Shown here piece after piece: positions 3,678 to 44,581 of a stretch of 44,581 nucleotides of DNA (positions are counted from its first letter, which is position 1; each line of letters starts with the position of its first letter). Both the position numbers and the translations under genes were made by a program. The notes beneath the pieces are model-generated. The model was not told the DNA's origin, did not search any database, and saw only the letters and a list, made by a program, of their open reading frames with translations. The stretch comes from Candidatus Thorarchaeota archaeon (GTDB lineage Archaea; Asgardarchaeota; Thorarchaeia; Thorarchaeales; Thorarchaeaceae): positions 1 through 44,581 of the forward strand of contig PRDH01000069.1 of assembly GCA_003345545.1 (NCBI GenBank), written 5' to 3'.

Positions 3678-4925
3678 TCATCCCAAGACGTCCTTTGCTG
3701 CTTTGCTCAGTCTGATATCATCATCAAGAATGGTGCCTATCTGCTTCTTGTTCACAGCCAGTTTGATTTTCTTCGTACGACCATAGCGGCCCTTGGAAAT
3801 CACGGTTGTATTGATGAGCCCGAGCATGTCCAACTCTGAGATTAAATCGGAAACGCGTCTCTGTGTCAATATATCGAGAGAGAGCGCCTTTGCAAGGTCT
3901 GAGTAGACATTGAAACACTCTCCAGTGACGATATCATTGTGCCCTTTGTCAGCCAGAGCGTATACAGCAAACAGTACTGCCTTCGATTGCATTGGAAGCG
4001 TCTTTACGGTTTCAGTTATTGTGTCTCGCTCAATTACTTTCTGGGCATCTCGTACATGCTCTTGACCAACTTTTGCATCTCCCCTTCGCTCAGCTAGTTC
4101 GCCTGCAGTTCTCAGTAAATCGAGTGCACGTCGCGCGTCCCCATGTTCTTGTGCAGCCAGTGCCCCAACAAGATTGATGACTCCCTCATCTGCAATTGCT
4201 TCTCTATTGAAGGCAATTTCCACCCTCTGTTGTAGGATTCCTCTTAGTTCGACTGCATTATAGGGTGCGAAGATGACCTCTTCTTCGCCTAGCGATGATA
4301 GTACCCTAGGGTCTAGCATCTCTTTGAAAGTCAGGTCATTACTTATTCCTATAATGGAAATACGGCTTCTCTCAAGTTCTCCATTCATCCGAGTCAATCC
4401 ATATAGAATGTCGTTTCCCTGGCTTACATCCCGTTTTACAAGATAGTCCACTTCATCAAGTACGACAACCATGATGTTCTGCCCCGAATCAAGATGTCTC
4501 TTGAAGATAGACCTGATCTCATCAGTAGGTAATCCAGTAAAGGGAACATCAGACCCATCAGGCATTGTTGCATTGACGGCGTCACAGAGCGTTCTCAGTA
4601 CTCGGTAGTTTGTTCCAACTATTCGACAATTGACAAGTGCGGTCTGAGGTGGTTTGAGCCCACTCTCCTTCGCCTTCTTTACTAACAAATCCAAGACATA
4701 CCGAGCAACAACGGTCTTCCCAGTGCCGGTCTTGCCATAGCAGAGAATGTTGGATGGCGGAGCTCCCCGTAATGCTGGTCCGAGAATGGAACCTATCTTG
4801 TTCATTTGATCATCCCTGTATGGAAGACTCTCAGGCACGTATGTTGCTCGTAGCGCAGTTCTATCCCTGAAGATGTCCTGTCCCTGCAGGAATTTGTCAA
4901 ACAGTTTATCGAGAGGTTTCTCCAT
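3678..4925 (-). CDS. cdc6: Orc1/Cdc6 replication initiator
   Basis: Walker A GKTGTGKT, Walker B VLDEVD, GDARRALD sensor 2, C-terminal wHTH with SKGRYGRT. Confidence 0.97.
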   Translation of the reverse strand: MEKPLDKLFDKFLQGQDIFRDRTALRATYVPESLPYRDDQMNKIGSILGPALRGAPPSNILCYGKTGTGKTVVARYVLDLLVKKAKESGLKPPQTALVNCRIVGTNYRVLRTLCDAVNATMPDGSDVPFTGLPTDEIRSIFKRHLDSGQNIMVVVLDEVDYLVKRDVSQGNDILYGLTRMNGELERSRISIIGISNDLTFKEMLDPRVLSSLGEEEVIFAPYNAVELRGILQQRVEIAFNREAIADEGVINLVGALAAQEHGDARRALDLLRTAGELAERRGDAKVGQEHVRDAQKVIERDTITETVKTLPMQSKAVLFAVYALADKGHNDIVTGECFNVYSDLAKALSLDILTQRRVSDLISELDMLGLINTTVISKGRYGRTKKIKLAVNKKQIGTILDDDIRLSKAAKDVLG

Positions 4926-5141: not shown

Positions 5142-5786
5142 TTGCGTCTTAAGGATCTAGAGATTGCACTCGAGTCCATATCACGTGTTGGCGAATATGA
5201 TGTTTCACTGGAGCAATACCCCACCCCGGCTCGAATTGCCTCTGCAATCCTCTTTGCGGCTCAGATGGAGTATGGTGACATAACGGATAAGACAGTATGC
5301 GATCTGGGGTGCGGGGACGGCATATTTGCTCTTGGTGCCGCTCTTCTCAACGCTGACAAGGTAATTGGAGTTGATGTACAAAGCAAAGCCTTAAAGGCGT
5401 CACAAATGAATTCACGAATGCTCGGGACAGAAGACACTGTAGACTGGGTACTAGGGGATGTTTCCTCTTTTCAGCTACGTTGTCTTGTCGACACTGTGGT
5501 CAGCAATCCTCCATTTGGTGTAAAGAGAAGAGGTGCTGACCTGAGATTCCTCCAAAAGGCGATCTCAATTGCCGATGTGACCTATAGCATTCACCTTGCA
5601 GGTGACAAGAACAGAGCCTTCCTGAAAAACGAAGTTGAAAAGCTTGGCGCAAGTGTGACACAAATCGAAACATTCCAATTTCCAATCGGTAAATTGTTCG
5701 ATTTTCATAGGAAAAGCGTGCATATGATTAATGTAGATCTCTATCGCATATGTTCAAAAGAGTGTGAACCGAATGGCCGATGTTAA
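5142..5786 (+). CDS. METTL5-like N6-adenine RNA methyltransferase
   Basis: LEQYPTP, DLGCGDG SAM motif, NPPFG catalytic motif, FHRK tail. Confidence 0.9.
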   Translation: MRLKDLEIALESISRVGEYDVSLEQYPTPARIASAILFAAQMEYGDITDKTVCDLGCGDGIFALGAALLNADKVIGVDVQSKALKASQMNSRMLGTEDTVDWVLGDVSSFQLRCLVDTVVSNPPFGVKRRGADLRFLQKAISIADVTYSIHLAGDKNRAFLKNEVEKLGASVTQIETFQFPIGKLFDFHRKSVHMINVDLYRICSKECEPNGRC

Positions 5787-6540
5787 GAGCGGTGATATTG
5801 TAGTACCCGGAGACCAGCTATGTGTTATTGAAGAGCTGAGCCCCAGTTATGGTACCTATGAAAAGGATGGCATCGTCTATGCTGCTGCGCCAGGTGCAGT
5901 GTCCATGGACCTCAAGGAGCGAATCATCAAGGTTCTCCAAACAGATGGGAAGATGAAGTTGGCGCTCCCCGTCAAGGGTGACATTCTGATGGGTGAGGTC
6001 GTCAATGCCTATGAGCAACGGGCAGAGATTGCCATAGTGCGCAGGAACGGTAAGGACTTTTACAGCGGCCTAGTAGGTGAGATTCATATCAGCAACGTCA
6101 CTCGTCGTTTCGTAAAGAGCATGCATGATGTACTAAGGGTGAGCGACATCGTACGCGCTGTAGCATTGAACACACATGAGATACCCACAACTCTGAGCGT
6201 AGTTGGGCCAGAACTAGGAGTAGTCTTCTCTAGATGTTCCAGATGTGGCAATCCCTTGACCCTTACAACATACAACAACTTGTTCTGTCTAAGGTGTGAG
6301 AACAGAGAAACGCGAGAAGTCGCTAATGACTATGGCCAGAACTATGGACTTGAAGCAAGACCTGATCTGGCACCCCGACGAAGGTCCTATGATAATCGAG
6401 GTTATGACCGAGATGACCGTCGTGGAGGCAGGCGCTTTGAAGGCGGCCGTCGTGAAAGGGACGGAGACAAGCGTTTTGGCGACAGGAGACCGGAGAGGCC
6501 TAGTCGAAGAGGAAGTGACAGCAGGAGGCGTCGTGATTGA
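5773..6540 (+). CDS. csl4: Exosome RNA-binding protein Csl4 with R/G/D-rich tail
   Basis: VVPGD N-domain, S1 domain, ELGVV followed by CSRC..CLRC..ETR Zn ribbon; conserved position before rpoL. Confidence 0.93.
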   Translation: MADVKSGDIVVPGDQLCVIEELSPSYGTYEKDGIVYAAAPGAVSMDLKERIIKVLQTDGKMKLALPVKGDILMGEVVNAYEQRAEIAIVRRNGKDFYSGLVGEIHISNVTRRFVKSMHDVLRVSDIVRAVALNTHEIPTTLSVVGPELGVVFSRCSRCGNPLTLTTYNNLFCLRCENRETREVANDYGQNYGLEARPDLAPRRRSYDNRGYDRDDRRGGRRFEGGRRERDGDKRFGDRRPERPSRRGSDSRRRRD

Positions 6541-13983: not shown

Positions 13984-15228
13984 ATGTCCAACCCAGTTCT
14001 TGTAATTGGTGCTGGTGTTGCAGGGATGACAGCAGCAATCGAGCTAGCAGACTCAGGAGTCAAGACAGTGCTTGTCGAGGAGCTCTCTACAACTGGTGGA
14101 AACGCTCTCGACTTGTACAAAGCCTTCCCCACTGATGACTGTTTTTATTGCTTTGAAGGAAATCGTTGGCGTCCCGGAATCCGAAAGTGTTTCTATAGGA
14201 GCGCATTGATAGACCAACCGAATATTGACCTGAAGATGAACAGTCGGGTGGAAGAGATATCCGGCAATCCGGGTAATTTTGGTATAGTACTTGCCATTGG
14301 ACCGCAGTACATTGATCCGATGAAATGCACCTTATGTGGCCTCTGTCTTGAGAAATCTAAATCCTTCAGTCTTGTGTCAGTGCAGTGTCAACCACAGGCT
14401 GTCATCTACAATCCCGACTCAAGAGACGAAGGCACTCAAATCGCTGCGAAAGAATGTCCTACACAGGCAATCAATCTTGATGCACAGGCCTCCAAAGAGA
14501 CAATCACCGTTTCTGATATCATCATAGCCACAGGCTTTCACGAGATGAAACCGTCAGCCATTGATGAGTATGGTTATGGTACGCACCCCAACATAATCAC
14601 ACAGCTTGAGTTGGCTAAGCTCTTAGACCCAAATGGTCCATCTGGAGGTGTACTTCTACGCCCATCTGACGGAGATCCGGCTAGACGAGTGATGATGATT
14701 CAATGTGTAGGTAGCAGAGATGAGAACTACTATCCCTACTGCTCAAAGATATGCTGCATATTTGCTCTGAAACATGCGAATATTCTGACCCGGGAGCGCG
14801 AGAATGTAGGAGTCAGTGTGGTCTACATGGACATACGAACCTACGACAGATATGAGAGATACTATCGTGAAACAAGGGAGTCCGGTGTTGAATATATTCG
14901 AGGACGAGTTTCACGTGTTACTCCCCAAGAAGATGGCAGCCTCTCTATAGTAGTGTACGATTCCCTCTTGAATACGTATCTCCGGTTCTCGGCAGACTTG
15001 TTTGTGCTGTCCTCTGCATTAGAGCCCTCTGCAGGAAGTGGACACATCATAGAAACTCTCAGACTGAAGTCTGCTAGCGGATTCATCGGCCCGCTATCTG
15101 CTGATGATCCGGTTGTTGTCGGAAACCATGTGTTTGCTTGTGGTACTGCGCTTGGCCCCGCTGAGGTCCCTGAGAGCGTCACGCAAGCACGGGCTGTTGT
15201 TTCTAAGATACTGCAGAGCAGGAAGTGA
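13984..15228 (+). CDS. hdrA: HdrA-family flavoprotein, short (QmoA-like architecture)
   Basis: GAGVAG FAD fold, FPTDDC..C, inserted ferredoxin CTLCGLC..CP, QCVGSRD..CSKICC; 414 aa with no N-terminal Cys domain. Confidence 0.88.
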   Translation: MSNPVLVIGAGVAGMTAAIELADSGVKTVLVEELSTTGGNALDLYKAFPTDDCFYCFEGNRWRPGIRKCFYRSALIDQPNIDLKMNSRVEEISGNPGNFGIVLAIGPQYIDPMKCTLCGLCLEKSKSFSLVSVQCQPQAVIYNPDSRDEGTQIAAKECPTQAINLDAQASKETITVSDIIIATGFHEMKPSAIDEYGYGTHPNIITQLELAKLLDPNGPSGGVLLRPSDGDPARRVMMIQCVGSRDENYYPYCSKICCIFALKHANILTRERENVGVSVVYMDIRTYDRYERYYRETRESGVEYIRGRVSRVTPQEDGSLSIVVYDSLLNTYLRFSADLFVLSSALEPSAGSGHIIETLRLKSASGFIGPLSADDPVVVGNHVFACGTALGPAEVPESVTQARAVVSKILQSRK

Positions 15229-32089: not shown

Positions 32090-32130
32090 TGAATGTATCC
32101 ATCCTTTGTCGTAATAGATTCACTTTGTTT

Positions 32131-32219
32131 GTGGTTCAGCCTCAGAGGGCCACATCCCGCGCGGACGTATCCGCCAACACAAAGGAATGGTCTGGTCACG
32201 GTATTCATACCGGACCAGA
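32131..32219 (-). ncRNA. Structured 5' leader of rpl15e (eL15 r-leader-like)
   Basis: Minus strand GCGGA-TACG-TCCGC hairpin, then GGGATGTGGCCCTCTGAGGCTGAACC; upstream hairpin TCTGGTC/GACCAGA plus CGGTAT/ATACCG. Confidence 0.65.
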
Positions 32220-35926: not shown

Positions 35927-36313
35927 TCACTGAATCAGGACTAAGAGATGCTTGACATCATTGCCTGTCTTCTCATTGATAACATCTACGAGCTGCTTGA
36001 GAAGGCGTCTTACATCCTCCCCACCAATATCGACTATAGTTCCGTTTGAACTCACGAGGTTCACATGTGGAATAGGGTTCAGTTCATACCGTGTTTCTCC
36101 TAGATAAGAAAAGCTACGCAACAGTCTTAGTTCCTCGAATGTAGCGAGGTTCTTCAGTACGGTAGACTGGCTTACGGTCGCATGTCTACTCCTGAATATC
36201 TCATAGATTTCCGAGAATGAGGGATGGTTCCTCCCATACTCTTCAAGAATACGTAGCAGTTCAAGGCGCTGAGGCGTGAGGCGCAGTCTGTTTTCTCTGA
36301 GTCGTTCTATCAC
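35927..36313 (-). CDS. Fur/PerR-family transcriptional regulator
   Basis: RLTPQR..LL, HPS..EIY, VSQSTV..L, RYEL; divergent from dpsL. Confidence 0.88.
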   Translation of the reverse strand: MIERLRENRLRLTPQRLELLRILEEYGRNHPSFSEIYEIFRSRHATVSQSTVLKNLATFEELRLLRSFSYLGETRYELNPIPHVNLVSSNGTIVDIGGEDVRRLLKQLVDVINEKTGNDVKHLLVLIQ

Positions 36314-36400
36314 ATCTCATGCGCATGCAGAAGGGATTATAAAACTATCGTAGTTAGATTTAAATAGAAGTAACTTTTATGTAGAACTAAGGTGAATAAG

Positions 36401-36952
36401 ATGGTAAAAGTCGCTAGAGAAATGGTCGAGAAGGCCGGGATTGAAGTAGACAAACTAGTCAACCTTCTGATCAAGAACGCTGCAGCTGAGCTGACGACAT
36501 TCTACTACTACACTATTCTTCGGGTCAACTTGATTGGGCTCGAGGGTGAAGGTATCAAAGAAATCGCAGAGACTGCACGCATTGAAGATAGGAACCACTT
36601 CGAGGCATTGGTACCCCGCATCTACGAGCTTGGTGGCCAGCTGCCAGAAGGGATGGTGGAGTTCCATAACATGTCTGCATGTCCGCCTGCGAAGCTTCCA
36701 AAGGACCCGACAGACGTCAAGGCGATGTTGAAGGTCTTGGTGGACGCAGAGCGATGCGCAGTCAGAGGTTACACTCAAATCTGTCACATGACTGCAGGAA
36801 AGGACCACAGGACCTATGATTTGGCATTAGCTATCCTCCACGAAGAAGTGGAACACGAGTCCTGGTTCTCTGAGTTCCTCGGTGAGGGCCCATCTGGTCA
36901 CTTCCTCCGTCGGGGCGAAACATCTCCCTTCGCTGGCAAGTTCCTTCGATAG
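36401..36952 (+). CDS. dps: DPS-like (DpsL / thioferritin) protein
   Basis: AAAELTTFYYYTILR, EDRNHFE, AERCA, ILHEEVEHE.WF, SGHF match archaeal DPSL; ATG after GGTGA. Confidence 0.93.
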   Translation: MVKVAREMVEKAGIEVDKLVNLLIKNAAAELTTFYYYTILRVNLIGLEGEGIKEIAETARIEDRNHFEALVPRIYELGGQLPEGMVEFHNMSACPPAKLPKDPTDVKAMLKVLVDAERCAVRGYTQICHMTAGKDHRTYDLALAILHEEVEHESWFSEFLGEGPSGHFLRRGETSPFAGKFLR

Positions 36953-37026
36953 AAACCGTCGAAACACACTTTCGGGAAAAGTAATGAAGAGAGCTCGCAG
37001 GCTCCCTTCTTGCTACTTTTTCAACC

Positions 37027-37278
37027 CTAGCATCCGCTCTGCCACCATCTCCACATGACATAGATTCCTCCCAGAACAGGAAGCACGCCAAAGAATATCG
37101 TGACTATCAACAACTCCATGGAATCCAGACCAACGTAGACAGTCAAAAAGGGCATGAGTATCAATACACCCTCTATGATTGTACCGCCGAACGTGAATAG
37201 GACTGCGGCCACGACGAGAAGGATGTTATTCCGCCTCCTTATTGCTTGATTTCTCGAATGGGCTGGTTCCGGTATCAA
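37027..37278 (-). CDS. Small two-TM membrane protein
   Basis: Two hydrophobic helices; TTG 37278 after GAGGTG (ORF open from 37359). Confidence 0.6.
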   Translation of the reverse strand: MIPEPAHSRNQAIRRRNNILLVVAAVLFTFGGTIIEGVLILMPFLTVYVGLDSMELLIVTIFFGVLPVLGGIYVMWRWWQSGC

Positions 37279-37386
37279 CTCTTTCCCACACCTCGTTACA
37301 TATCCTATGGCTCGTAGATTTATTTCTGTTCGCACTATGATTGAAAAAAGGAGCTCCAAAGAGAAGATGGTCGCTGATAGCTTATG

Positions 37387-37752
37387 TTAGGGAAACAATA
37401 ACACCAGCTCTACACTCGATACTGGATCTAGGCTAAGGTTAGAATAGGCCGTTCCCCTGACGATGATAGTCCAGTTGACATGGAGTCGTGTTTCAGTCCA
37501 ATAGAGTTCAATACTGCCACTCCCATCAGACATCCTCACATTTTGCATGTTACGGCCATTCAATATAACAACGATCTCCAAAATCACTCCCTTGACAGTC
37601 ACATCCGAACCGATTGGAGTGATTCCCGTATTGATCGATGAGATGGGAGTTATCCCTGTAGGATTGTCATGTACGTACATGAGGGTCAGACTAAGGGGAG
37701 CCATTATCGCTATGAGCACCAGCAATGTGGCCAGAGCTCTTTTTCGCCCCAT
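37387..37752 (-). CDS. Membrane-anchored OB-fold protein
   Basis: N-terminal TM; TPISSI..VTVKG..SDGSGSI..IIVRG OB pattern; GGAGG RBS. Confidence 0.7.
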   Translation of the reverse strand: MGRKRALATLLVLIAIMAPLSLTLMYVHDNPTGITPISSINTGITPIGSDVTVKGVILEIVVILNGRNMQNVRMSDGSGSIELYWTETRLHVNWTIIVRGTAYSNLSLDPVSSVELVLLFP

Positions 37753-37855
37753 ATTGTTCCTCCACATTGAACTCAATATAGTACTGGTCTGTGCTCATAC
37801 CACGCTTTTGTACCATGCATTGATGCTGGTGAAGTACAGGTCGACAGTCTTGTGA

Positions 37856-39688
37856 TCAGTATCTTCTTCTCGATAAGATAAGAGCAAGTCCTGCCACAAC
37901 AAGAGTGCCTCCGATTGCGATAGCCAGAGTCATTAACATATTCTCATCAATTTGTGCATCTGTTACATTAGTTACATCTGTTACATTAGGTCTTAGAACA
38001 GCATATGATTGGATTTCTGATAACTCGAGATTTCCAATTTCGTCCCTAACAATTGCTTGGTATGAAATAGTCGTACCCTCATCCTGAGGTGGAATTGATG
38101 TAGTCCATATTGGTCCATAATGAGTCATTGAGAGATTAGCCCAAGTAAGATTTCCATCTATGGAGTATGAGAGTATCACGTCTTTAACACCATCAATATC
38201 AATCACGCCCATGGTCACACTGACCGTGTCATTCTCGGTAGGTCTTGAAGGAGTGATACTGAAGCCTATCCAGAAACCAGACTCGCCAACTGGCGACACT
38301 CTTGATGGATACCTATCTATGCTTCCCGCATCTCCAGGAATGTAGTATTCTCCTGCGCCTCCATAGTCATCCCAATAGTTCCCTTGGCTCTTTCCATCAT
38401 CCCAGACACTTTGCTGACCACCGTCCCACGAGTTGCCAGCTGAAATTGTGTACCCTTCACCATTCGCGCAAATCACATTGTGGAAGTATCTATTTCCAAA
38501 TCCGCCAATAGGAGGCACAAAGATACCTATACCTTGATTCTGGTAGACTATATTGGCAGCCACAAGGGCGTTATCCGACTCTACAACTGCGATCCCCCAT
38601 TGCCTGTTGTGGTGGAACTTGCTCAGAATGACCGAACACCCCTCAGACCAACATAGAGTAGTTCCATGTCCACAGGAGTAGATTGTGCAGTTCTTTAAGA
38701 TGCAATCTCTGCAAGAGAGGAAGTCTACGCCATCTGCTGTATCGTGTATGACTCCATCTTGGACAGTCACATTGTTACAGTCCACAAGAATGACTTGACC
38801 GTAATTGCTGGGGCAAATGGTTGCATCCGAAAGATTTGCAAAGTATCCTATAGGCTTGTCATTGACTGTGTTGTTGTAGACCTGAAGGCTAGGAATCGGA
38901 GTGTAATCTAGTTCGAGACCACTGTTTATCATAGTGTTGTTGGCTACAAGGGTATCGACTGCTTCAAAGAAACTTAGATAATACGACCAAAAGCCAGCCT
39001 GACTCCCATCAATTCTATTGTTGCTTACTGTACACTCAACAGTCTCTTGAAGACAGATGTCTCCTAGAATATCGTTCCTGTCAACTAGACACTGGCGAAC
39101 ATGGTACAGATGGACCCCTTCACGACTATCATAGACAGTGTTATTGAAAATTGTACAATGCTCTGGGTACCCCTCGCCATAGGGCCCCTGCACATCTATG
39201 GCAAGACCACTGTCGTAAATCTCACACTCAATGACGCTGCAGTCTGATGAAGAAACAATGGTAACTGCTAGCCATTTCTTTGAAACGACTACTCTCTCAA
39301 CCATGCCATTGGTGACATCCCCAAGAGTGATGCCCCTATTCCAAAGTCCCTCCCACTGACTCACGGAAGAGATGAAACAGTTTCGTACAACAAAGAATAC
39401 ATCTGTGTGTGAAACATTGATGCATTCCTTACCATCTGTGATTATGCTTAGTCCTTCTATTACATATGGGTCTGTCTGAGTCCCATTTCCTAGCCATCCT
39501 TGAGTCTCAAAGTCTGCGTTCGAGTTGATTATGATAGGTGAATGCGGCACATATGATGGATTCTGTTGATCCTGAATTGTGACCATATTGCCCGCATCTG
39601 AGGTTACTAGACCACTATTCCTCGCTGTGGGTACTGAGATTGATGCAAGTACCAAGATGACTAAGACCAACTGCCACTTCCTGAGCAT
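37856..39688 (-). CDS. Cell-surface right-handed beta-helix (NosD/pectin-lyase-like) protein with Ig-like domain and C-terminal TM anchor
   Basis: Signal peptide, H.PI.I..N.DF..GW.G.GT..DPY.I, parallel beta-helix repeats, WDDG..GNYWDDY, C-terminal TM plus RRRY. Confidence 0.88.
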   Translation of the reverse strand: MLRKWQLVLVILVLASISVPTARNSGLVTSDAGNMVTIQDQQNPSYVPHSPIIINSNADFETQGWLGNGTQTDPYVIEGLSIITDGKECINVSHTDVFFVVRNCFISSVSQWEGLWNRGITLGDVTNGMVERVVVSKKWLAVTIVSSSDCSVIECEIYDSGLAIDVQGPYGEGYPEHCTIFNNTVYDSREGVHLYHVRQCLVDRNDILGDICLQETVECTVSNNRIDGSQAGFWSYYLSFFEAVDTLVANNTMINSGLELDYTPIPSLQVYNNTVNDKPIGYFANLSDATICPSNYGQVILVDCNNVTVQDGVIHDTADGVDFLSCRDCILKNCTIYSCGHGTTLCWSEGCSVILSKFHHNRQWGIAVVESDNALVAANIVYQNQGIGIFVPPIGGFGNRYFHNVICANGEGYTISAGNSWDGGQQSVWDDGKSQGNYWDDYGGAGEYYIPGDAGSIDRYPSRVSPVGESGFWIGFSITPSRPTENDTVSVTMGVIDIDGVKDVILSYSIDGNLTWANLSMTHYGPIWTTSIPPQDEGTTISYQAIVRDEIGNLELSEIQSYAVLRPNVTDVTNVTDAQIDENMLMTLAIAIGGTLVVAGLALILSRRRY

Positions 39689-40226
39689 GGCATGAAACCC
39701 CTCTATTTGAACAGAGTCCGATGCCCCACATCGGTTGTCCATTGCCATATAGGTAAAACTGCTAATTAATCATTCCAATTGAGTAGTTGGAGTTTCCAAG
39801 AGAAACATCATCAGCCGCTTTTCCGACTATTCAGTTGAACAGATAGAAAACGCTCTCGACCATTGTAGAGTACTTCATCATCTTCCCGTCGAGTTCTGTA
39901 TTGGCATGAACTTTATGAGAAAAGACAGTCCGAGATTGCAGAATGAGCCCTTCTGATACTGCAAACTCCTCTATGGCACCTGCACGCCTGCTTTGGAGAG
40001 CCTAGTCATCTATTTTGTTTGAATAAACATCTCATAGGAGATAATCGAACATTCTCTGGGTGCATGGTGGAGTTCTATTTCCTCCCAAAGACTTTGGTAT
40101 CTTCAGTGCAGAGAGATTGACGGGTATCGTTGTTGTCTGAGTTGTGGATTGGTCAATTCATTGTGGGAGCCATCTCGGCTGGCATCGTTGTCGCGCTCAG
40201 AGGAGCTACTGTCCGAGAGTGATTTC

Positions 40227-42842
40227 ATGGTCGAGCACGCCTCTGAGCGGAAACGGTGGAGGCATCCACGCGAGGGTGATGACCGGCCCGGGGAGCTGCG
40301 GAAGGCCGAGGGCGGTGTCGAGGTTCAGGAGCATGAGGCTGGGAACCGCGAGGACAGTGAAACCCGTGGGAGTGTGGAGCGTCGGCTCGGTGCTGCCATG
40401 CGGGAGCTGGAGGCTCGGGAGGGCAAGGAGGCAACGATCTCTTGGAAACTGAGAAAGGCATTCGATGACCTCGAACGGAGGGAGCAGAGAAAGGAGTCTA
40501 CCGAGGCCAAGCTCAGGGAGGCTCTGGAGAGTCTGAAGGATGATGAGGACAGCGTACAACTCACTCTTGAAGCGGCTGTTCAACTTGGCGGAACGGAGGC
40601 TGCGCGGGACAAGAACGATACGCGAGAGGGTTCTGATGTTTCAGGTCGGCATCAGATTGAAGTATCTGAGGTTGACACTGTACAGAAACGGATTGATGTA
40701 GAGAAAGAGAGTTCTCGTCAATTTGGTTATATTTCCACAAAGAATGAGTTTGATGAAGCACTTGCATGTTATCCCGAATTGGAGTTGCGTAGCAGATTTG
40801 AATCACGGTATGAAGAAGTGGTTAGATACTATGTGGCCTCCGAATCTGGGATTGAAACCTGCAAGCCAGAGCTTGTAATTGAACTTGAGAATCGTGAAGT
40901 CCGAAGGATGTATGAGGAGGCAAACGGAGGACCACCAAATGTACGAATTGAATCAATGAAAGATGTGGACGAACTAATCGAGAAACACTCTGATAACATA
41001 TCTGTATCTGAGAAGCTCTACGAAAATGCTGAAACCTACTTCAGGATCAGAAATGAGAGCGGAAAAAACCAACATCAATTGGCTGCTGAATATGGATTAT
41101 CCCAGAGCAAAATCAGCGATATTCGAAGAGGTGTTGAAACCAAACTAATCAAGACTCTTCGGATGAGAGAAGAAGAATGTACTGTCCATGATTGGGCAGA
41201 CACTCAGAGCCGTGCCCAAACGGAAAAAAACAGCACTGGACAGAGTGAGATCAAAGAACAGCGATTCTCTGTTGAAAGGTCGGCTGTGCAAAAGATTGAA
41301 CCTGAATCAATCAAAGACTCGTTCACTCAGATTCGAGAGTCTAATAGAATTGATAGAAAGAGCATCGAGGATGCCATTGAGAGAATGGTGCAAATCTCTC
41401 AAAACACAGAGAGCAGAGTGAAGATGGCGGATCTTCGACAATCTGGGATAGATTCAGTGAGAATGACCGCAGTCAGGCTAATTATTAATTTGAATACAAT
41501 GGAGATAGAGAAGCATCTCAAAGAACGCCTTAGTGTTGATGAAGTACGCATCGGATTGATTAGTGATAGGCTATATGTCTGGACCCCTAATATGTCACCC
41601 AATGATATGCTCAATGCCTGGCGAACGCAATACTTCTACCTCAACAACCATGACATGGCTAAGATGGTGGATACAGTCGGCACACATATGGACCTAGGTG
41701 ACTCAAGGCGTGAGAAGCTCAGAAATCTGAACGAGTTGATGCATCAGATGGTGCGTGTCGAAACACTATCTGATGCTATCAAGATTGATGGTGACCGTTC
41801 TCGTATGCCCGGTGAGGCTATGCATTTGCAGCGTGATATGCAAGGCATACGAAACAAGGACCTTGAAGGGATAGTCAAGAAGGTCTCTGGAATCAACGGG
41901 CACGGTGGAATAAACAATCCTAAGTTCCCAGAGGGTCACAGATTGGAGGCCCTACGCGCCAGGCTGATTGCCACCTCCCTTAGTGACTGTCATATTCGTA
42001 TTGATGCTTCAGTTGTGGAATATTATGAGCAGAACCTCCAGCGTCTTGAGCGATTAGTAAATCAAGTATTACGTGAATTTGGCGACTTTACTAATGAACC
42101 AGAATACGTGGAAAAGGACAATGTTTACAAACTAAGAATCCAGAGTCCGTATGGTCGGGCTCTAAATGAATGGGGTGTCCCATCTGGGGACAAAGCAATA
42201 CTCAATCCTTGTCTTCCAAATGAAGTCACTAAATGGTTGGCGACATCAATTATCGCATATCATGAAGATATGATTGCACAAGAGGGCCACGTTTCCCCAG
42301 GGCAAGTCAGCTGGAATCGTTCCAACACACTTCATAGTGGTGTTAAATCAGAAAAATATGACTCTGTGAACCGAATCTCGGAAGGGGAAACTAGATTGAT
42401 TCAAAGCAAGGGAAATGATTATGCTGGGAGCCCAAACGGAGCCAAGACACTACTTTGGACGACAATAGAGAATCTAAGAAAGTCGACTGAATCTGAAGAA
42501 ACCGAAGCAGCTAGAGCACTCCATGACACCATTCTAGAGAACCGTAACAAATTGATGGATGATGAGAAGAACATTGCCGAAAAACTAGGAATCGATCTCT
42601 CAATACGTCCGGTACAGGTTACATATTACCCAGAATCCGGAAGAGTTTCCGTAAAATGGGTAACTCGAACATCAAATCCTGAGGCAGTAATTCGATGGGG
42701 ACTGGTTTGTCCACCCAACCATCCTAAAAAAAGAGAGGAGCTTAAGAAGTGGATAATTGCACAGAATCCTGAAAAAGTTAGGAGAATAGCCAGAGAAGTA
42801 GAGGAGGATGGACTTCCTATTCATTCAATATGGAGGGACTAA
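40227..42842 (+). CDS. Large protein: charged repeats, HTH and C-terminal two-motif LAGLIDADG-like endonuclease domain
   Basis: HTH QHQLAAEYGLSQSKISDIRRG; RLIATSLSDCHI and IIAYHEDMIAQEGHV about 95 aa apart with GVPSGDK between. The ORF is clear; the domain call is by eye. Confidence 0.65.
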   Translation: MVEHASERKRWRHPREGDDRPGELRKAEGGVEVQEHEAGNREDSETRGSVERRLGAAMRELEAREGKEATISWKLRKAFDDLERREQRKESTEAKLREALESLKDDEDSVQLTLEAAVQLGGTEAARDKNDTREGSDVSGRHQIEVSEVDTVQKRIDVEKESSRQFGYISTKNEFDEALACYPELELRSRFESRYEEVVRYYVASESGIETCKPELVIELENREVRRMYEEANGGPPNVRIESMKDVDELIEKHSDNISVSEKLYENAETYFRIRNESGKNQHQLAAEYGLSQSKISDIRRGVETKLIKTLRMREEECTVHDWADTQSRAQTEKNSTGQSEIKEQRFSVERSAVQKIEPESIKDSFTQIRESNRIDRKSIEDAIERMVQISQNTESRVKMADLRQSGIDSVRMTAVRLIINLNTMEIEKHLKERLSVDEVRIGLISDRLYVWTPNMSPNDMLNAWRTQYFYLNNHDMAKMVDTVGTHMDLGDSRREKLRNLNELMHQMVRVETLSDAIKIDGDRSRMPGEAMHLQRDMQGIRNKDLEGIVKKVSGINGHGGINNPKFPEGHRLEALRARLIATSLSDCHIRIDASVVEYYEQNLQRLERLVNQVLREFGDFTNEPEYVEKDNVYKLRIQSPYGRALNEWGVPSGDKAILNPCLPNEVTKWLATSIIAYHEDMIAQEGHVSPGQVSWNRSNTLHSGVKSEKYDSVNRISEGETRLIQSKGNDYAGSPNGAKTLLWTTIENLRKSTESEETEAARALHDTILENRNKLMDDEKNIAEKLGIDLSIRPVQVTYYPESGRVSVKWVTRTSNPEAVIRWGLVCPPNHPKKREELKKWIIAQNPEKVRRIAREVEEDGLPIHSIWRD

Positions 42843-42847
42843 TATCT

Positions 42848-43642
42848 ATGAGCCATGATGTTGAAAATATAGTCGAAAACGTAATGGAAATATTCCTAGA
42901 ACTAAACAGGGCAATAATTCCATTAGAAGTCGTTATTGAGAAACTCTCGAACGACTTTGTAATCAAAGAAATCGAAGAAGCCATAGAGTATGCACAGGAG
43001 CGATTTCAGGTTGACAAGGTCCTCGACTATCCCTCTAATGAATGGAGTTCCTATGCTGGATATCCCCTTTGGCATTTGCTGAAACTTACTCCTGAAGAGG
43101 CTGCTAATCTTCAGAATCTGAAACCCGTAGATCGGGCGCTGCTGCGGCTCTTGAAGAATCAAAACACTGCTAAGCGCTTTGGTCAGATGAAATCTGATGA
43201 TGCAAGGGTTCTCTTGCGTGAACAAGGCTTTACAAATGGAGAAACAGAATTTCTATGGATTGAAGATGTTGTAGATAATCATTATGAATATGAAGACGGA
43301 AAGAATATTGAGTGGTGTCGCTTGATTCCCGAGAACGAGAAGACTGAGGAATACAAGAAAGCAGAAGAAGAGATACAGAAGGAGTTTGATAGAAAGGAAG
43401 CCTTCCGAATGTACATCGCAGACATTCATGACCTTGCTGACTTGATATTGAAAGCTGTGAGAGCAGCTCCAGAGGGCATATCCAAAAAAGACATCATCGT
43501 ACAGCTGTTCAAAGCCCCAACAAAGTATATCGAAGAGGCTTTTGAAATCGCAGCAGAAGAGAAAGAGATACTACCAGTCACACTCGCTAATGGGGAAGAG
43601 GGCTATCGCATCAACACTCATTTTGATGATGAGGATTGGTAA
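42848..43642 (+). CDS. Acidic hypothetical protein, probable tandem winged-helix domains
   Basis: Very E/D-rich; starts 5 bp after the upstream stop, with a GGAGGG RBS. Confidence 0.75.
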   Translation: MSHDVENIVENVMEIFLELNRAIIPLEVVIEKLSNDFVIKEIEEAIEYAQERFQVDKVLDYPSNEWSSYAGYPLWHLLKLTPEEAANLQNLKPVDRALLRLLKNQNTAKRFGQMKSDDARVLLREQGFTNGETEFLWIEDVVDNHYEYEDGKNIEWCRLIPENEKTEEYKKAEEEIQKEFDRKEAFRMYIADIHDLADLILKAVRAAPEGISKKDIIVQLFKAPTKYIEEAFEIAAEEKEILPVTLANGEEGYRINTHFDDEDW

Positions 43643-43664
43643 GGCAATATTAACTATGATTAAG

Positions 43665-43803
43665 TGGTAGCGGGTAGTGGATTTTTTGGCCGAATCATGG
43701 AAGTCATGATTCGCGAACCACCGGTCTCAGGGTTATGAGCCCTGCGGGATAGGCTTCGCCCATGGGCGGAGAATCCGCTCTAGACTGGCTTCCCCAACCC
43801 GCT
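43665..43803 (-). tRNA. Initiator tRNA-Met (CAT) with two 30-nt introns (D-loop and T-loop) and encoded CCA
   Basis: Acceptor AGCGGGT/ACCCGCT (A1:U72), D-stem GGGA/TCCC, anticodon arm CAGGG-CTCATAA-CCCTG (3 G:C pairs), T-stem GGTGG/CCACT, ACCA end; 79 nt after removing 43755-43784 and 43685-43714. Confidence 0.92.
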
Positions 43804-43918
43804 TTACTTAAACCATTGTTTGAGCAAACGCAAGTGTGTGGCCCAGAAGGACCTCTACCGGCGTTGCTTAGACGGGGAACGGCTGTGGCGAGTATTAAAG
43901 TTATTCGTAGGGCAGGTC

Positions 43919-43945
43919 TGTAGACACTCTTATCAGGCTGCAGAG
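43919..43945 (+). repeat. 27-bp direct repeat, copy 1
   Basis: TGTAGACACTCTTATCAGGCTGCAGAG. Confidence 0.85.
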
Positions 43946-43959
43946 CATAGACATGGTGA

Positions 43960-44553
43960 GTGGAGATGGGAGATTCGAGGTTACTCACACGGTTCCGCGA
44001 GTTCTGCATGGCCTATAGGGCCAAGTATGCTTTCGAAGGTGTTGTCGAGGATCTACAGTCATTGAAGCTTGTTGGGCCAGAGCGCCTCCCCAGGGGTATG
44101 TTGGTTCGTGGTACGGTGGGTCCAAGATTTGTTCAATTCGAGTCTGAGCGAATGCCTCCTGTGACCATCGGAGATACGGTCATAGTAGTGGGACTGGATG
44201 GATGGCGAGGCGAGAACAGTGTTCTTCCCGCAGTACTTCTCAATCCAACAGAAAGATATGCATGGTTCTTCGGAGACCTTCGGCATAGAATGACCTGTAA
44301 CATGGCACTCTGGAACACATCTGTGATTTTTGCTGTTGCTTTTGGTATATTCTTGATAGCGAAGCAGATTCCGCCGCTACGAGAGATCTGGAGCTATGTT
44401 CTTTCCTTGCTGTTCCTTATAGTAGCTTTCTTCGCCGAACCGTTTGTTCTGAAATACAACGAACGACCTAGATTGTATTACTGTGATGAGAAGACATGGC
44501 ATGCACTCACTGCTGAGCTAGCAGAGAGATTTGGCATTAAGGCTTCAGTATGA
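43960..44553 (+). CDS. Hypothetical membrane protein (beta-rich N-domain, two TM)
   Basis: 197-aa ORF with GGTGA RBS and two hydrophobic helices. Confidence 0.75.
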   Translation: MEMGDSRLLTRFREFCMAYRAKYAFEGVVEDLQSLKLVGPERLPRGMLVRGTVGPRFVQFESERMPPVTIGDTVIVVGLDGWRGENSVLPAVLLNPTERYAWFFGDLRHRMTCNMALWNTSVIFAVAFGIFLIAKQIPPLREIWSYVLSLLFLIVAFFAEPFVLKYNERPRLYYCDEKTWHALTAELAERFGIKASV

Positions 44554-44554
44554 G

Positions 44555-44581
44555 TGTAGACACTCTTATCGGGCTGCGGAG
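44555..44581 (+). repeat. 27-bp direct repeat, copy 2 (may continue past the window end)
   Basis: TGTAGACACTCTTATCGGGCTGCGGAG, 25/27 identical to copy 1. Confidence 0.85.

What the first reader, a model, noticed from the sequence alone, without database searches (positions are those of the whole stretch)
40227..43642. Giant free-standing HTH-LAGLIDADG-like protein paired with an acidic wHTH partner, abutting the intron-bearing tRNA
Seen: the last 300 aa or so carry two LAGLIDADG-like helices (RLIATSLSDCHI at about 41961-41996; IIAYHEDMIAQEGHV at about 42249-42293) with the intein-endonuclease-like GVPSGDK..P block between them. Acidic residues (D, E) and the Lys sit at the expected catalytic positions. 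There are no intein splicing ends or host gene. About 570 aa of charged repeats plus an HTH precede the domain. A very acidic 264-aa gene follows 5 bp later and ends 22 bp from the tRNA CCA. Inference: an undescribed two-gene module. It could be a nuclease with an inhibitor (DNA mimic), a domesticated WhiA-like regulator, or a mobile cassette using the tRNA 3' end. A role in intron spread or maturation is speculative. This is my best candidate for a new system.
Basis: partly seen in the sequence, partly recalled or inferred. Interest (0 to 1): 0.75.

Follow-up and report, generated by a model that had tools for sequence, protein, structure and literature searches.

The report
Homing nuclease and partner beside tRNA-Met
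In an Asgard (Thorarchaeota-type) archaeon, a large gene encoding an apparently active DNA-cutting "homing" enzyme and a small acidic partner predicted to plug that enzyme's DNA-binding groove form a selfish, integrase-free insertion pressed against the end of the initiator tRNA gene.

Summary
Gene A (40227-42842, 871 aa) ends in a 450-aa module that folds with high confidence (pLDDT 93) into a two-motif LAGLIDADG endonuclease: Z 17.1 to an intein endonuclease, 16.1 to I-Tsp061I, 14.4 to I-DmoI. It matches no Pfam or NCBIfam model. The catalytic Asp/Glu pair is kept in 165-167 of 167 family representatives.

Gene B (42848-43642, 264 aa, pI 4.6) is three winged helices joined by a long acidic helix.

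A is not a WhiA-like regulator. Its family is patchy within the genus (0-9 copies per genome), with fragments and pseudogenes. Its stop codon almost always faces the 3' end of a tRNA or protein gene.

A-B-tRNA-Met recurs in four other species, with A only 30-58% identical. Other species have A-less sites. Stranded copies of the tRNA's last 11 nt mark stacked older insertions. The window holds a relic of an older partner gene (39789-40006).

This layout matches yeast WHO elements, which replace a gene's 3' end.

A co-fold puts B's acidic helix on A's DNA-binding saddle (score 0.90, best control 0.00), so B may be an inhibitor. This is predicted, not shown.

Other agents of this scan noted the same kind of element on other Asgard DNA. 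I found no paper describing it.

The parts
40227..42842 (+). Gene A, 871 aa: free-standing LAGLIDADG endonuclease with a long N-terminal extension
   Evidence: ORF and start agree with the homologues. The 100%-identical database protein has no name. The nearest named homologues are hypothetical proteins of Thorarchaeota/Promethearchaeota MAGs.
40227..40736 (+). A residues 1-170: acidic/basic low-complexity region, poorly conserved and variable in length
   Evidence: Alignment A1; composition; no tandem repeat.
41046..41141 (+). A residues ~274-305: probable helix-turn-helix
   Evidence: Sub-threshold Pfam HTH_3 / HTH_ParB matches; the block is conserved in the alignment. Not folded here.
41484..42839 (+). 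A residues 420-871: conserved C-terminal module (N-terminal subdomain plus double LAGLIDADG domain plus C-terminal helices)
   Evidence: AF2 pLDDT 93.1, pTM 0.91. VIA Z 17.1 (7qsu), 16.5 (1dq3), 16.1 (2dch), 14.8 (WhiA 8dy7), 14.4 (I-DmoI). A profile search finds 653 clusters, always at the C-terminus.
41961..41996 (+). LAGLIDADG motif 1 (RLIATSLSDCHI), catalytic Asp D587
   Evidence: Model helix 151-168; D in 165/167 representatives.
42174..42194 (+). GVPSGDK block, with Lys K656 near the active site
   Evidence: G650, G654, D655 and K656 conserved. Weak NCBIfam match of the paralogue to this block in an intein-containing RtcB.
42249..42293 (+). LAGLIDADG motif 2 (IIAYHEDMIAQEGHV), catalytic Glu E686
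   Evidence: Model helix 253-263; D or E in 167/167.
42848..43642 (+). Gene B, 264 aa, pI 4.6: three winged helices plus a long acidic helix; predicted to bind A's DNA-binding saddle
   Evidence: AF2 pLDDT 89.6. WH1 Z 10.1 to the Rpa2 WH domain, WH3 Z 9.1/8.9 to cullin WHB and Rpc34. Foldseek hits STK19, TFIIIC tauB and RPC62. Co-fold score 0.90 against a best control of 0.00.
43643..43664 (.). 22-nt spacer holding the trailer motif CTTAATCATAGTTAAT (43649-43664, read on the tRNA strand), shared by element-bearing tRNA-Met loci
   Evidence: Identical in G001 and near-identical in G009 and G005. A-less loci and stranded tails carry T-rich trailers instead.
43665..43803 (-). Initiator-type tRNA-Met(CAT) gene with two ~30-nt non-canonical inserts; the presumed target or anchor of the element
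   Evidence: ARAGORN calls it only after the inserts are removed. It is conserved next to the 197-aa membrane gene across the genus.
39789..40006 (+). Frame-shifted relic of a 'short-B' gene (helix plus last winged helix) from an older element
   Evidence: tblastn: 39789-39893 matches the short B of G001 at 49% over 35 aa, E 3e-8. 39974-40006, in another frame, matches its C-terminal end, E 0.055. A jackhmmer hit supports it.
40116..40125 (+). Possible eroded copy of the tRNA 3' tail (TTGACGGGTA against TGGTAGCGGGTA); not significant on its own
   Evidence: Read from the sequence. It lies between the relic and A, where the stacking model expects an old tail. No intact 11-mer copy exists in the window.

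Best explanation
Genes A and B form the tRNA-proximal end of an integrase-free homing element that occupies the 3' flank of the initiator tRNA-Met gene.

Shown: A has a double LAGLIDADG fold. Its catalytic residues are conserved across the family. The family is patchy, multi-copy and often decayed within one genus. Its 3' end faces the 3' end of a tRNA or protein gene. A-less sites and stranded tRNA tails exist in relatives.

Inferred mechanism: A is an active site-specific endonuclease that cuts unoccupied tRNA-Met 3' ends. The break is repaired from an occupied copy. The element brings its own copy of the tRNA's last ~11 nt plus a new trailer, so the tRNA stays intact and the site is no longer cut. 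The old tail and older elements are pushed outward and decay. This is the logic of yeast WHO elements.

B is A's co-translated partner. Its long acidic helix, wings and acidic C-tail are predicted to cover A's DNA-binding beta-saddle and active site. Most likely B holds the nuclease in check as an inhibitor or 'safety catch'. Short forms of B may protect a site that has lost A.
For: Fold: AF2 pLDDT 93. Foldseek gives probability 1.00 to I-Tsp061I, intein endonucleases, I-DmoI and WhiA. VIA Z is 17.1, 16.5, 16.1 and 14.4, with 170-190 residues aligned at rmsd 2.6-3.0.

Active site: D587 in 165/167, E686 as D or E in 167/167, K656 as K or R in 166/167.

Mobility: there are 0-9 matches per genome in 16 of 24 congeners, including pseudogenes with stops, C-terminal fragments and many contig ends. 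G000 itself has three further matches: two near-identical full-length paralogues and a fragment.

Position: the stop of A, or of A+B, lies 6-73 nt from a convergent tRNA (Met, Asn x2, Phe, Ser, Arg) or protein gene (AhcY at 17 nt, and others).

Same site, different lineages: A-B-tRNA-Met occurs in G009 (58% identity), G005 (30%) and G021. G001 has a tRNA 99% identical to the window's, but its A fragment is only 43% identical and is followed by a short B.

A-less sites: G043 has the same left flank (the NosD-like gene) only 0.7 kb from the tRNA. G013 and G022 also lack A at this site.

Stacking: stranded (Y)ACCCGCTACCA tails with T-rich trailers occur in 8 relatives. The G009 module lies exactly between a tail and the tRNA, and a short-B fragment lies 18 nt before the older tail. 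The window holds a short-B relic.

No integrase-family hit was found in the island proteins tested.

B: it overlaps or abuts A in 12 of 36 full-length loci. The co-fold supports binding but does not show it. Score 0.90/0.90/0.89, best of 3 controls 0.00. The runs agree in at least 85% of contacts and the partner's pLDDT is at least 85. That mark was reached by 58 of 80 solved complexes and 2 of 110 mismatched pairs; these counts hold only roughly because my own alignments were used. The contacts fall on A's beta strands 168-181, 212-214, 269-280 and 371-393 and on the GDK loop 235-238. An intact orphan short B sits between a tail and the tRNA in G022, a genome in which no A was found.
Against: No cleavage, binding or transfer was measured.

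The window itself has no intact stranded tRNA tail, so its distal boundary is undefined.

Short direct repeats of a tRNA 3' end are also what a tyrosine integrase leaves, and some tail-bounded islands hold neither A nor an integrase.

No stranded tails were found at the tRNA-Asn, Phe, Ser or Arg copies within the DNA fetched.

Two thirds of A copies lack B, so an inhibitor cannot be essential. B-bearing copies are scattered on the tree.

Structure predictors tend to place acidic helices in DNA grooves, and no coordinates were inspected; only the contact list was.

G009 and G004 also carry 3'-truncated tRNA-Met copies 2 kb beyond the intact one. A simple tail-swap does not predict this.
Confidence: 0.6

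Rival explanations
1. The variable region beside tRNA-Met is an ordinary integrative island, moved by a recombinase encoded elsewhere or since lost. A and B are only passengers, or a selfish gene pair riding on the island.
For: Direct repeats of the last 11 nt of the tRNA bound the islands, as att sites do. Tail-bounded islands exist without A, for example 5.7 kb in G015:C162.
Against: No integrase-family Pfam hit was found in the island proteins tested or around A in the window. A always sits at the target-proximal end, tail to tail with the target, at six or more different targets including protein genes. Different A lineages occupy the same tRNA-Met site.
Confidence: 0.13
2. A and B are a toxin-antitoxin-like or defence-type nuclease-inhibitor pair. 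Their job is addiction or anti-invader defence rather than homing, and the tRNA is an incidental neighbour.
For: The genes are coupled, 5 nt apart. B is acidic. A strong co-fold places B over A's DNA-binding face. An orphan short B resembles an orphan immunity gene.
Against: About two thirds of A copies have no B. A's position against gene and tRNA 3' ends is systematic. The PADLOC library was not scanned, so defence-family membership is untested.
Confidence: 0.1
3. A is a domesticated, non-cutting LAGLIDADG DNA-binding regulator (WhiA-like), and B is its co-regulator. They might control the adjacent tRNA or replication genes.
For: WhiA is among the structural matches, Z 14.8. A carries an HTH-like segment. 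B's fold resembles the tandem winged helices of Pol III/TFIIIC factors.
Against: The catalytic Asp/Glu pair is conserved in 165-167 of 167 representatives, whereas WhiA is described as having lost these residues (my own knowledge). Copy number is 0-9 per genome, with pseudogenes and fragments. The gene is not found in a third of congeners. The HTH is N-terminal, not C-terminal.
Confidence: 0.05

Closest known systems
WHO elements of Torulaspora/Lachancea yeasts at FBA1 (Coughlan et al. 2020, PMC7282813; bioRxiv 10.64898/2026.08.13.744650)
   Same: A free-standing homing endonuclease gene lies just beyond the 3' end of a conserved host gene. Each insertion supplies a new 3' end. Old 3' ends and older, decaying endonuclease genes pile up distally, with the newest unit next to the intact gene. 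The tRNA-Met loci of this genus show the same layout.
   Different: WHO proteins are intein-derived (Hint plus LAGLIDADG) zinc-finger fusions of eukaryotes that target a protein gene. Here there is no Hint domain, the host is an archaeon, the target is a tRNA gene with a tail of only ~11 nt, and a partner protein is present. This is an analogy of mechanism, not shown homology of the element. Cleavage is untested here.
Monomeric archaeal LAGLIDADG endonucleases I-Tsp061I and I-DmoI, and intein endonuclease domains (PI-PfuI, TliVMA, PI-SceI)
   Same: The two-motif alpha-beta-beta-alpha-beta-beta-alpha x2 fold, with an acidic residue ending each LAGLIDADG helix and a Lys-bearing loop.
   Different: These enzymes are encoded inside rRNA introns or inteins and are 170-200 aa as domains. 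Gene A is free-standing and 871 aa, with a 420-aa N-terminal extension, an extra ~130-aa subdomain and inserts in domain 2. It is not recognised by Pfam LAGLIDADG models.
Free-standing LAGLIDADG_3 (PF14528) plus HTH proteins of DPANN archaea (uncharacterised ESM-Atlas clusters)
   Same: These are the nearest predicted structures (TM 0.51-0.56 by query over ~290 residues). They are free-standing and often carry HTH domains.
   Different: They are shorter (370-450 aa), match PF14528 and come from other phyla. Nothing is known of their context or function.
WhiA (bacterial sporulation and cell-division regulator)
   Same: A LAGLIDADG fold joined to an HTH in a free-standing protein.
   Different: WhiA is a single-copy, conserved protein that lacks the catalytic residues and has a C-terminal HTH (my own knowledge). 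A keeps the catalytic residues, has an N-terminal HTH, and is patchy and multi-copy.
Nuclease-immunity pairs (colicin DNase-Im, barnase-barstar) and DNA-mimic inhibitors
   Same: An acidic small protein encoded directly downstream of a nuclease is predicted to cover the nuclease's substrate-binding face.
   Different: The folds are unrelated: B is a triple winged helix. My text searches turned up no protein inhibitor of a LAGLIDADG enzyme. Inhibition is only predicted here.

Membership tests
LAGLIDADG homing endonuclease superfamily (double-motif, monomeric type) | Two alpha-beta-beta-alpha-beta-beta-alpha domains packed through two LAGLIDADG helices | tested here: met
   AF2 pLDDT 93. VIA Z 14-17 to 2dch, 1dq3, 7qsu and I-DmoI over 160-190 residues.
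LAGLIDADG homing endonuclease superfamily (double-motif, monomeric type) | An acidic catalytic residue at the C-terminal end of each LAGLIDADG helix | tested here: met
   D587 and E686. Conserved in 165/167 and 167/167 family representatives.
LAGLIDADG homing endonuclease superfamily (double-motif, monomeric type) | Match to a curated sequence model (Pfam LAGLIDADG_1/2/3, Hom_end, LAGLIDADG_WhiA) | tested here: not met
   No such hit even at E up to 10 for A, its C-terminal part or the paralogue; none in NCBIfam. It belongs to the fold superfamily but to a sequence family of its own.
LAGLIDADG homing endonuclease superfamily (double-motif, monomeric type) | Site-specific double-strand cleavage of a long DNA target | not testable with these tools
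   Needs an enzyme assay.
Intein- or intron-encoded homing endonuclease | Embedded in a self-splicing intein (Hint domain) or an intron of a host gene | tested here: not met
   No Hint or Intein_splicing hit. A has its own start and stop, with intergenic DNA on both sides.
WHO-like / mitochondrial mORF-like homing elements that replace a gene's 3' end | The endonuclease gene lies directly beyond the 3' end of the target gene | tested here: met
   22 nt from the tRNA-Met CCA end in the window. 6-73 nt from tRNA or gene ends in most genus copies.
WHO-like / mitochondrial mORF-like homing elements that replace a gene's 3' end | Stranded old 3' ends and decayed older units distal to the newest unit | tested here: met
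   Tails are present in 8 relatives, with a stacked short-B fragment before a tail in G009. In the window itself there is only a short-B relic and a non-significant tail-like 10-mer.
WHO-like / mitochondrial mORF-like homing elements that replace a gene's 3' end | Alleles or species without the element at the same site | tested here: met
   G043 has the same NosD-like left flank 0.7 kb from the tRNA. G013 and G022 lack A at the site.
WHO-like / mitochondrial mORF-like homing elements that replace a gene's 3' end | The endonuclease cuts the unoccupied allele but not the occupied one | not testable with these tools
   Needs cleavage assays on both allele types.
WHO-like / mitochondrial mORF-like homing elements that replace a gene's 3' end | Protein homologous to WHO/HO (Hint-LAGLIDADG-zinc finger) | tested here: not met
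   No Hint or zinc-finger hit. The resemblance is one of mechanism only.
WhiA | Degenerate LAGLIDADG domain without catalytic acids, C-terminal HTH, conserved single-copy gene | tested here: not met
   The catalytic acids are kept. The HTH-like block is N-terminal. There are 0-9 copies per genome, with pseudogenes.
Integrase-mediated tRNA-gene island | A tyrosine or serine recombinase gene within the island | tested here: not met
   No integrase-family Pfam hit in 10 island proteins of G015, G005 and G009, or in the proteins flanking A in the window. Only a sample was tested.
Integrase-mediated tRNA-gene island | Direct repeats of the tRNA 3' end at the island borders | tested here: met
   11-nt repeats in 8 relatives; none in the window.
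Nuclease-inhibitor (immunity / antitoxin-like) pair | Direct binding of the small protein over the nuclease's substrate site | tested here: inconclusive
   The co-fold supports binding: score 0.90, best control 0.00, contacts on the beta-saddle and GDK loop. This is a prediction only.
Nuclease-inhibitor (immunity / antitoxin-like) pair | Toxicity of the nuclease, rescued by the partner | not testable with these tools
   Needs expression tests.

The most novel reading that the evidence does not exclude
B-family proteins are dedicated protein inhibitors of LAGLIDADG homing endonucleases that work by filling the DNA-binding saddle. Short, orphan B genes kept next to tRNA-Met, as in G022, would then be immunity genes that protect an essential tRNA gene from invading nucleases. 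That would reveal an arms race between homing elements and their targets in the closest archaeal relatives of eukaryotes, possibly linked to the unusual T-loop introns of this tRNA.
Probability: 0.3. Interest if true: 0.85.

Novelty: new variant of a known kind. Interest (0 to 1): 0.72.

Why it matters
Three points matter if this is right.

1. It would extend the 'replace the gene's end' style of homing to archaea and to tRNA genes. That style is published only for a few yeasts and fungal mitochondria. It would offer an integrase-free route by which islands build up next to tRNA genes in Asgard genomes.

2. It defines a very large, unannotated family of probably active rare-cutting endonucleases: 653 clusters at 50% identity. 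Their targets can largely be read from their position, which is useful for enzyme discovery.

3. A natural protein that blocks a LAGLIDADG enzyme's DNA-binding saddle would be new biology and a possible off-switch for meganucleases.

The diversity of tails and introns in the initiator tRNA of this genus may also be a footprint of this conflict.

Tried and rejected
- ARAGORN and Rfam on the native sequence find no tRNA next to B. This was resolved by removing the two inserts.
- Pfam and NCBIfam give no family for A or B.
- There is no second copy of the tRNA piece in the window (25-mer with up to 3 mismatches; 11-mer with up to 1 mismatch) or in the whole assembly.
- No repeat pair in 36000-44581 bounds A-B.
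- The window's intergenic region 39749-40226 shows no nucleotide similarity to the NosD-tRNA spacer of G043.
- No stranded tails were found at the tRNA-Asn, Phe, Ser or Arg copies.
- The other ~250-aa genes downstream of B-less A copies are not B homologues (hhalign probability below 1%).
- The Atlas feature search of A residues 171-570 gave nothing usable.
- A search of earlier findings by sequence found nothing.
- No tandem repeats occur in A.
- Whether contigs C62 and C15 (AhcY plus A, 87% identical throughout) are a stacked duplicate or a second strain could not be decided.


Full report
**What is there**

Gene A runs from ATG 40227 to TAA 42842 (871 aa). Gene B starts 5 nt later (ATG 42848) and stops at 43642 (264 aa). 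After 22 nt comes the CCA end (43665) of a minus-strand tRNA-like gene. The start codons agree with the homologues. Neither protein matches any Pfam or NCBIfam family. The one exception is a sub-threshold HTH_3 match at A residues ~274-305. ARAGORN and Rfam miss the tRNA. Once the 30-nt T-loop insert (43685-43714) and a ~30-nt D-region insert are removed, ARAGORN calls tRNA-Met(CAT).

**Fold of A**

I folded A residues 420-871 with an 18-sequence alignment. The result was pLDDT 93.1 and pTM 0.91. Foldseek against the PDB returns only LAGLIDADG enzymes at the top: I-Tsp061I, the TliVMA, PI-PfuI and PI-SceI intein endonucleases, I-DmoI and WhiA. VIA-align gives these scores:

| Match | Z | Aligned residues | rmsd |
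|---|---|---|---|
| 7qsu (TliVMA intein) | 17.1 | 190 | 2.7 |
| PI-PfuI | 16.5 | – | – |
| I-Tsp061I | 16.1 | 184 of 204 | – |
| WhiA | 14.8 | – | – |
| I-DmoI | 14.4 | – | – |

In 167 family representatives, the motif-1 Asp is present in 165. The motif-2 acid is D or E in all 167. The Lys of the GDK block is K or R in 166. So this is a free-standing, very probably active, double-motif LAGLIDADG endonuclease. It belongs to a sequence family that curated models do not cover. The nearest predicted structures in the ESM Atlas are free-standing LAGLIDADG_3-plus-HTH proteins of DPANN archaea, and inteins.

**The family behaves like selfish DNA**

A profile search of 1.84 billion representatives finds 653 clusters, 231 of them below 1e-30. 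The module is always C-terminal, behind N-terminal extensions of 0 to ~1100 aa. The named members are hypothetical proteins of Thorarchaeota, Promethearchaeota and Sifarchaeia MAGs.

Among the window's congeners, 16 of 24 sampled genomes have matches, from 0 to 9 per genome. Many matches have internal stops, are C-terminal fragments, or sit at contig ends. The window's own assembly has three further matches. Two are near-identical 728-aa paralogues with textbook motifs. The third is a fragment.

Across 36 full-length copies, the stop codon of A (or of A+B) typically lies 6-73 nt from the 3' end of a convergent tRNA or protein gene. The tRNAs are Met, Asn (twice), Phe, Ser and Arg. The protein genes include AhcY at 17 nt.

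**The tRNA-Met site**

The initiator tRNA-Met and the 197-aa membrane gene to its right are linked throughout the genus. The DNA on the tRNA's 3' side is variable.

- A-B-tRNA-Met recurs in G009 (A module 58% identical), G005 (30%) and G021.
- In G001 the tRNA is 99% identical to the window's and the membrane gene 88%. Yet the adjacent A fragment is only 43% identical and is followed by a 100-aa 'short B'. Different nuclease lineages have therefore entered the same site.
- G043 has the window's left-flank gene (NosD-like, 65% identical) only 0.7 kb from the tRNA, with no A or B. G013 and G022 also lack A at this site.
- In eight relatives the variable region holds one to three stranded copies of the tRNA's last 11 nt, (Y)ACCCGCTACCA, each followed by a T-rich trailer like that of A-less tRNAs. 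The intact tRNA next to A/B carries a different, shared trailer, CTTAATCATAGTTAAT.
- In G009 the module DUF87-ATPase-A-B-shortB lies exactly between a stranded tail and the tRNA. A short-B fragment lies 18 nt before the next, older tail. In G005, A-B-shortB fills the 3.7 kb between a tail and the tRNA.
- Ten island proteins gave no integrase-family hit.

The window itself has no intact stranded tail. Between the NosD-like gene and A, however, it holds a frame-shifted relic of a short-B gene (39789-40006; E 3e-8 for the main piece). A weak tail-like 10-mer follows at 40116-40125. This is the footprint of an older unit displaced by the present A-B.

**Gene B**

B folds confidently (pLDDT 89.6) into three winged helices plus a 40-residue helix. 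WH1 resembles the Rpa2 WH domain (Z 10.1). WH3 resembles cullin WHB and Rpc34 (Z ~9). The whole chain resembles tandem-WH proteins such as STK19, TFIIIC tauB and RPC62. Its pI is 4.6.

B homologues directly follow A in 12 of 36 full-length copies. They are often split into a ~190-aa N-part and a ~95-aa C-part, the 'short B'. B-bearing copies are scattered over the A tree.

A co-fold of A(420-871) with B supports binding but does not show it:

- The score was 0.90, 0.90 and 0.89 in three runs, against a best control of 0.00.
- The runs share at least 85% of their contacts, and the partner's pLDDT is at least 85.
- This mark was reached by 58 of 80 solved complexes and 2 of 110 mismatched pairs. 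These counts hold only roughly, because I supplied my own alignments.

B's long helix (172-201), its wings and its acidic C-tail touch A's strands 168-181, 212-214, 269-280 and 371-393 and the GDK loop. From the known LAGLIDADG architecture, these are the DNA-binding saddle and the active-site mouth. G022, in which no A was found, keeps an intact short B exactly between a stranded tail and the tRNA.

**Mechanism proposed**

The following steps are inferred. A cuts unoccupied tRNA-Met 3' ends. Repair from an occupied copy installs the element together with a replacement tail and a new trailer. The tRNA therefore stays functional and the site stops being a target. Old tails and older units move outward and decay. 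This is the published model for yeast WHO elements at FBA1 (PMC7282813, section read). B most likely restrains A by competing with DNA.

**Alternatives and gaps**

- A lost integrase could also explain the 11-nt repeats.
- Two thirds of A copies do without B.
- Acidic helices are easily placed in DNA grooves by structure predictors.
- G009 and G004 carry 3'-truncated tRNA-Met copies that the simple model does not predict.

**Prior knowledge**

Text searches found no paper linking LAGLIDADG proteins to Asgard mobile elements. They also found none describing a protein inhibitor of a LAGLIDADG enzyme.

Earlier agents of this scan described the same kind of element on other Asgard genomes. I used those notes as leads. 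In this genus I tested their central claims myself: position against tRNA and gene ends, absence of an integrase, and stacked ends.

Noticed in passing
window 43665-43803 (-) and L099-L113, L038, L061: The initiator tRNA-Met of this genus carries a changing set of inserts: a ~30-nt D-region insert in most species, a canonical anticodon-loop intron in many, and two unrelated T-loop inserts in some. The window, G001, G010 and G017 share one T-loop type; G009, G012 and G014 share the other. The T-stem differs between species by compensatory pairs (at least six variants), while the other stems barely change.
   Followed up: partly
L038 (G009:C50) 14217-14288 and L110 (G004:C188) 3717-3787: A second tRNA-Met copy, truncated at its 3' side, lies ~2.1 kb beyond the intact one on the side away from the element. 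In G009 it breaks exactly at the T-loop insert position. In G009 a beta-lactamase-family gene lies between the two copies.
   Followed up: partly
G000 contigs C15:73.7-76.0 kb and C62:1-2760 (L069, L003): Two 728-aa A paralogues with canonical motifs (LYAMIGSDGSI, YLEELIPDEGCV) each end 16-17 nt from the stop of an S-adenosylhomocysteine hydrolase gene, tail to tail. The two contigs are colinear at a uniform ~87% identity, and both break inside A. They may be a stacked duplicate or a second strain.
   Followed up: partly
L006/L038 (G009:C50), gene before A: In G009, a 904-aa protein with a weak DUF87 (HerA/FtsK-like ATPase) match directly precedes A inside the tail-bounded unit. The window's copy has no such gene.
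   Followed up: no
L100 (G022:C7) 2202-2483: An intact 94-aa 'short B' gene is the only content of the 321 bp between a stranded tRNA tail and the intact tRNA-Met, in a genome where no A was found (87% complete).
   Followed up: partly
window 43919-43945 and 44555-44581: A 27-nt direct repeat (93% identical) brackets the 197-aa membrane gene. The second copy runs to the contig end. G001 has the first copy in the same place.
   Followed up: no
window 32128-32174 (-): There is an Rfam match to the eL15 ribosomal-protein leader of Euryarchaeota (47.9 bits against a gathering score of 33.7), here in an Asgard genome.
   Followed up: no
L007 (Thorarchaeota CP070658) 5147-6004: In this complete genome, the A homologue upstream of the B homologue is interrupted by a run of N directly after an inositol-1-phosphate synthase gene. 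Only its last ~236 residues can be read.
   Followed up: no
B residues 160-170 (window ~43325-43357): The only invariant stretch of B, IPExEKTEEYK, lies just before the helix that is predicted to contact A and is itself outside the confident contact list. Its role is unexplained.
   Followed up: no
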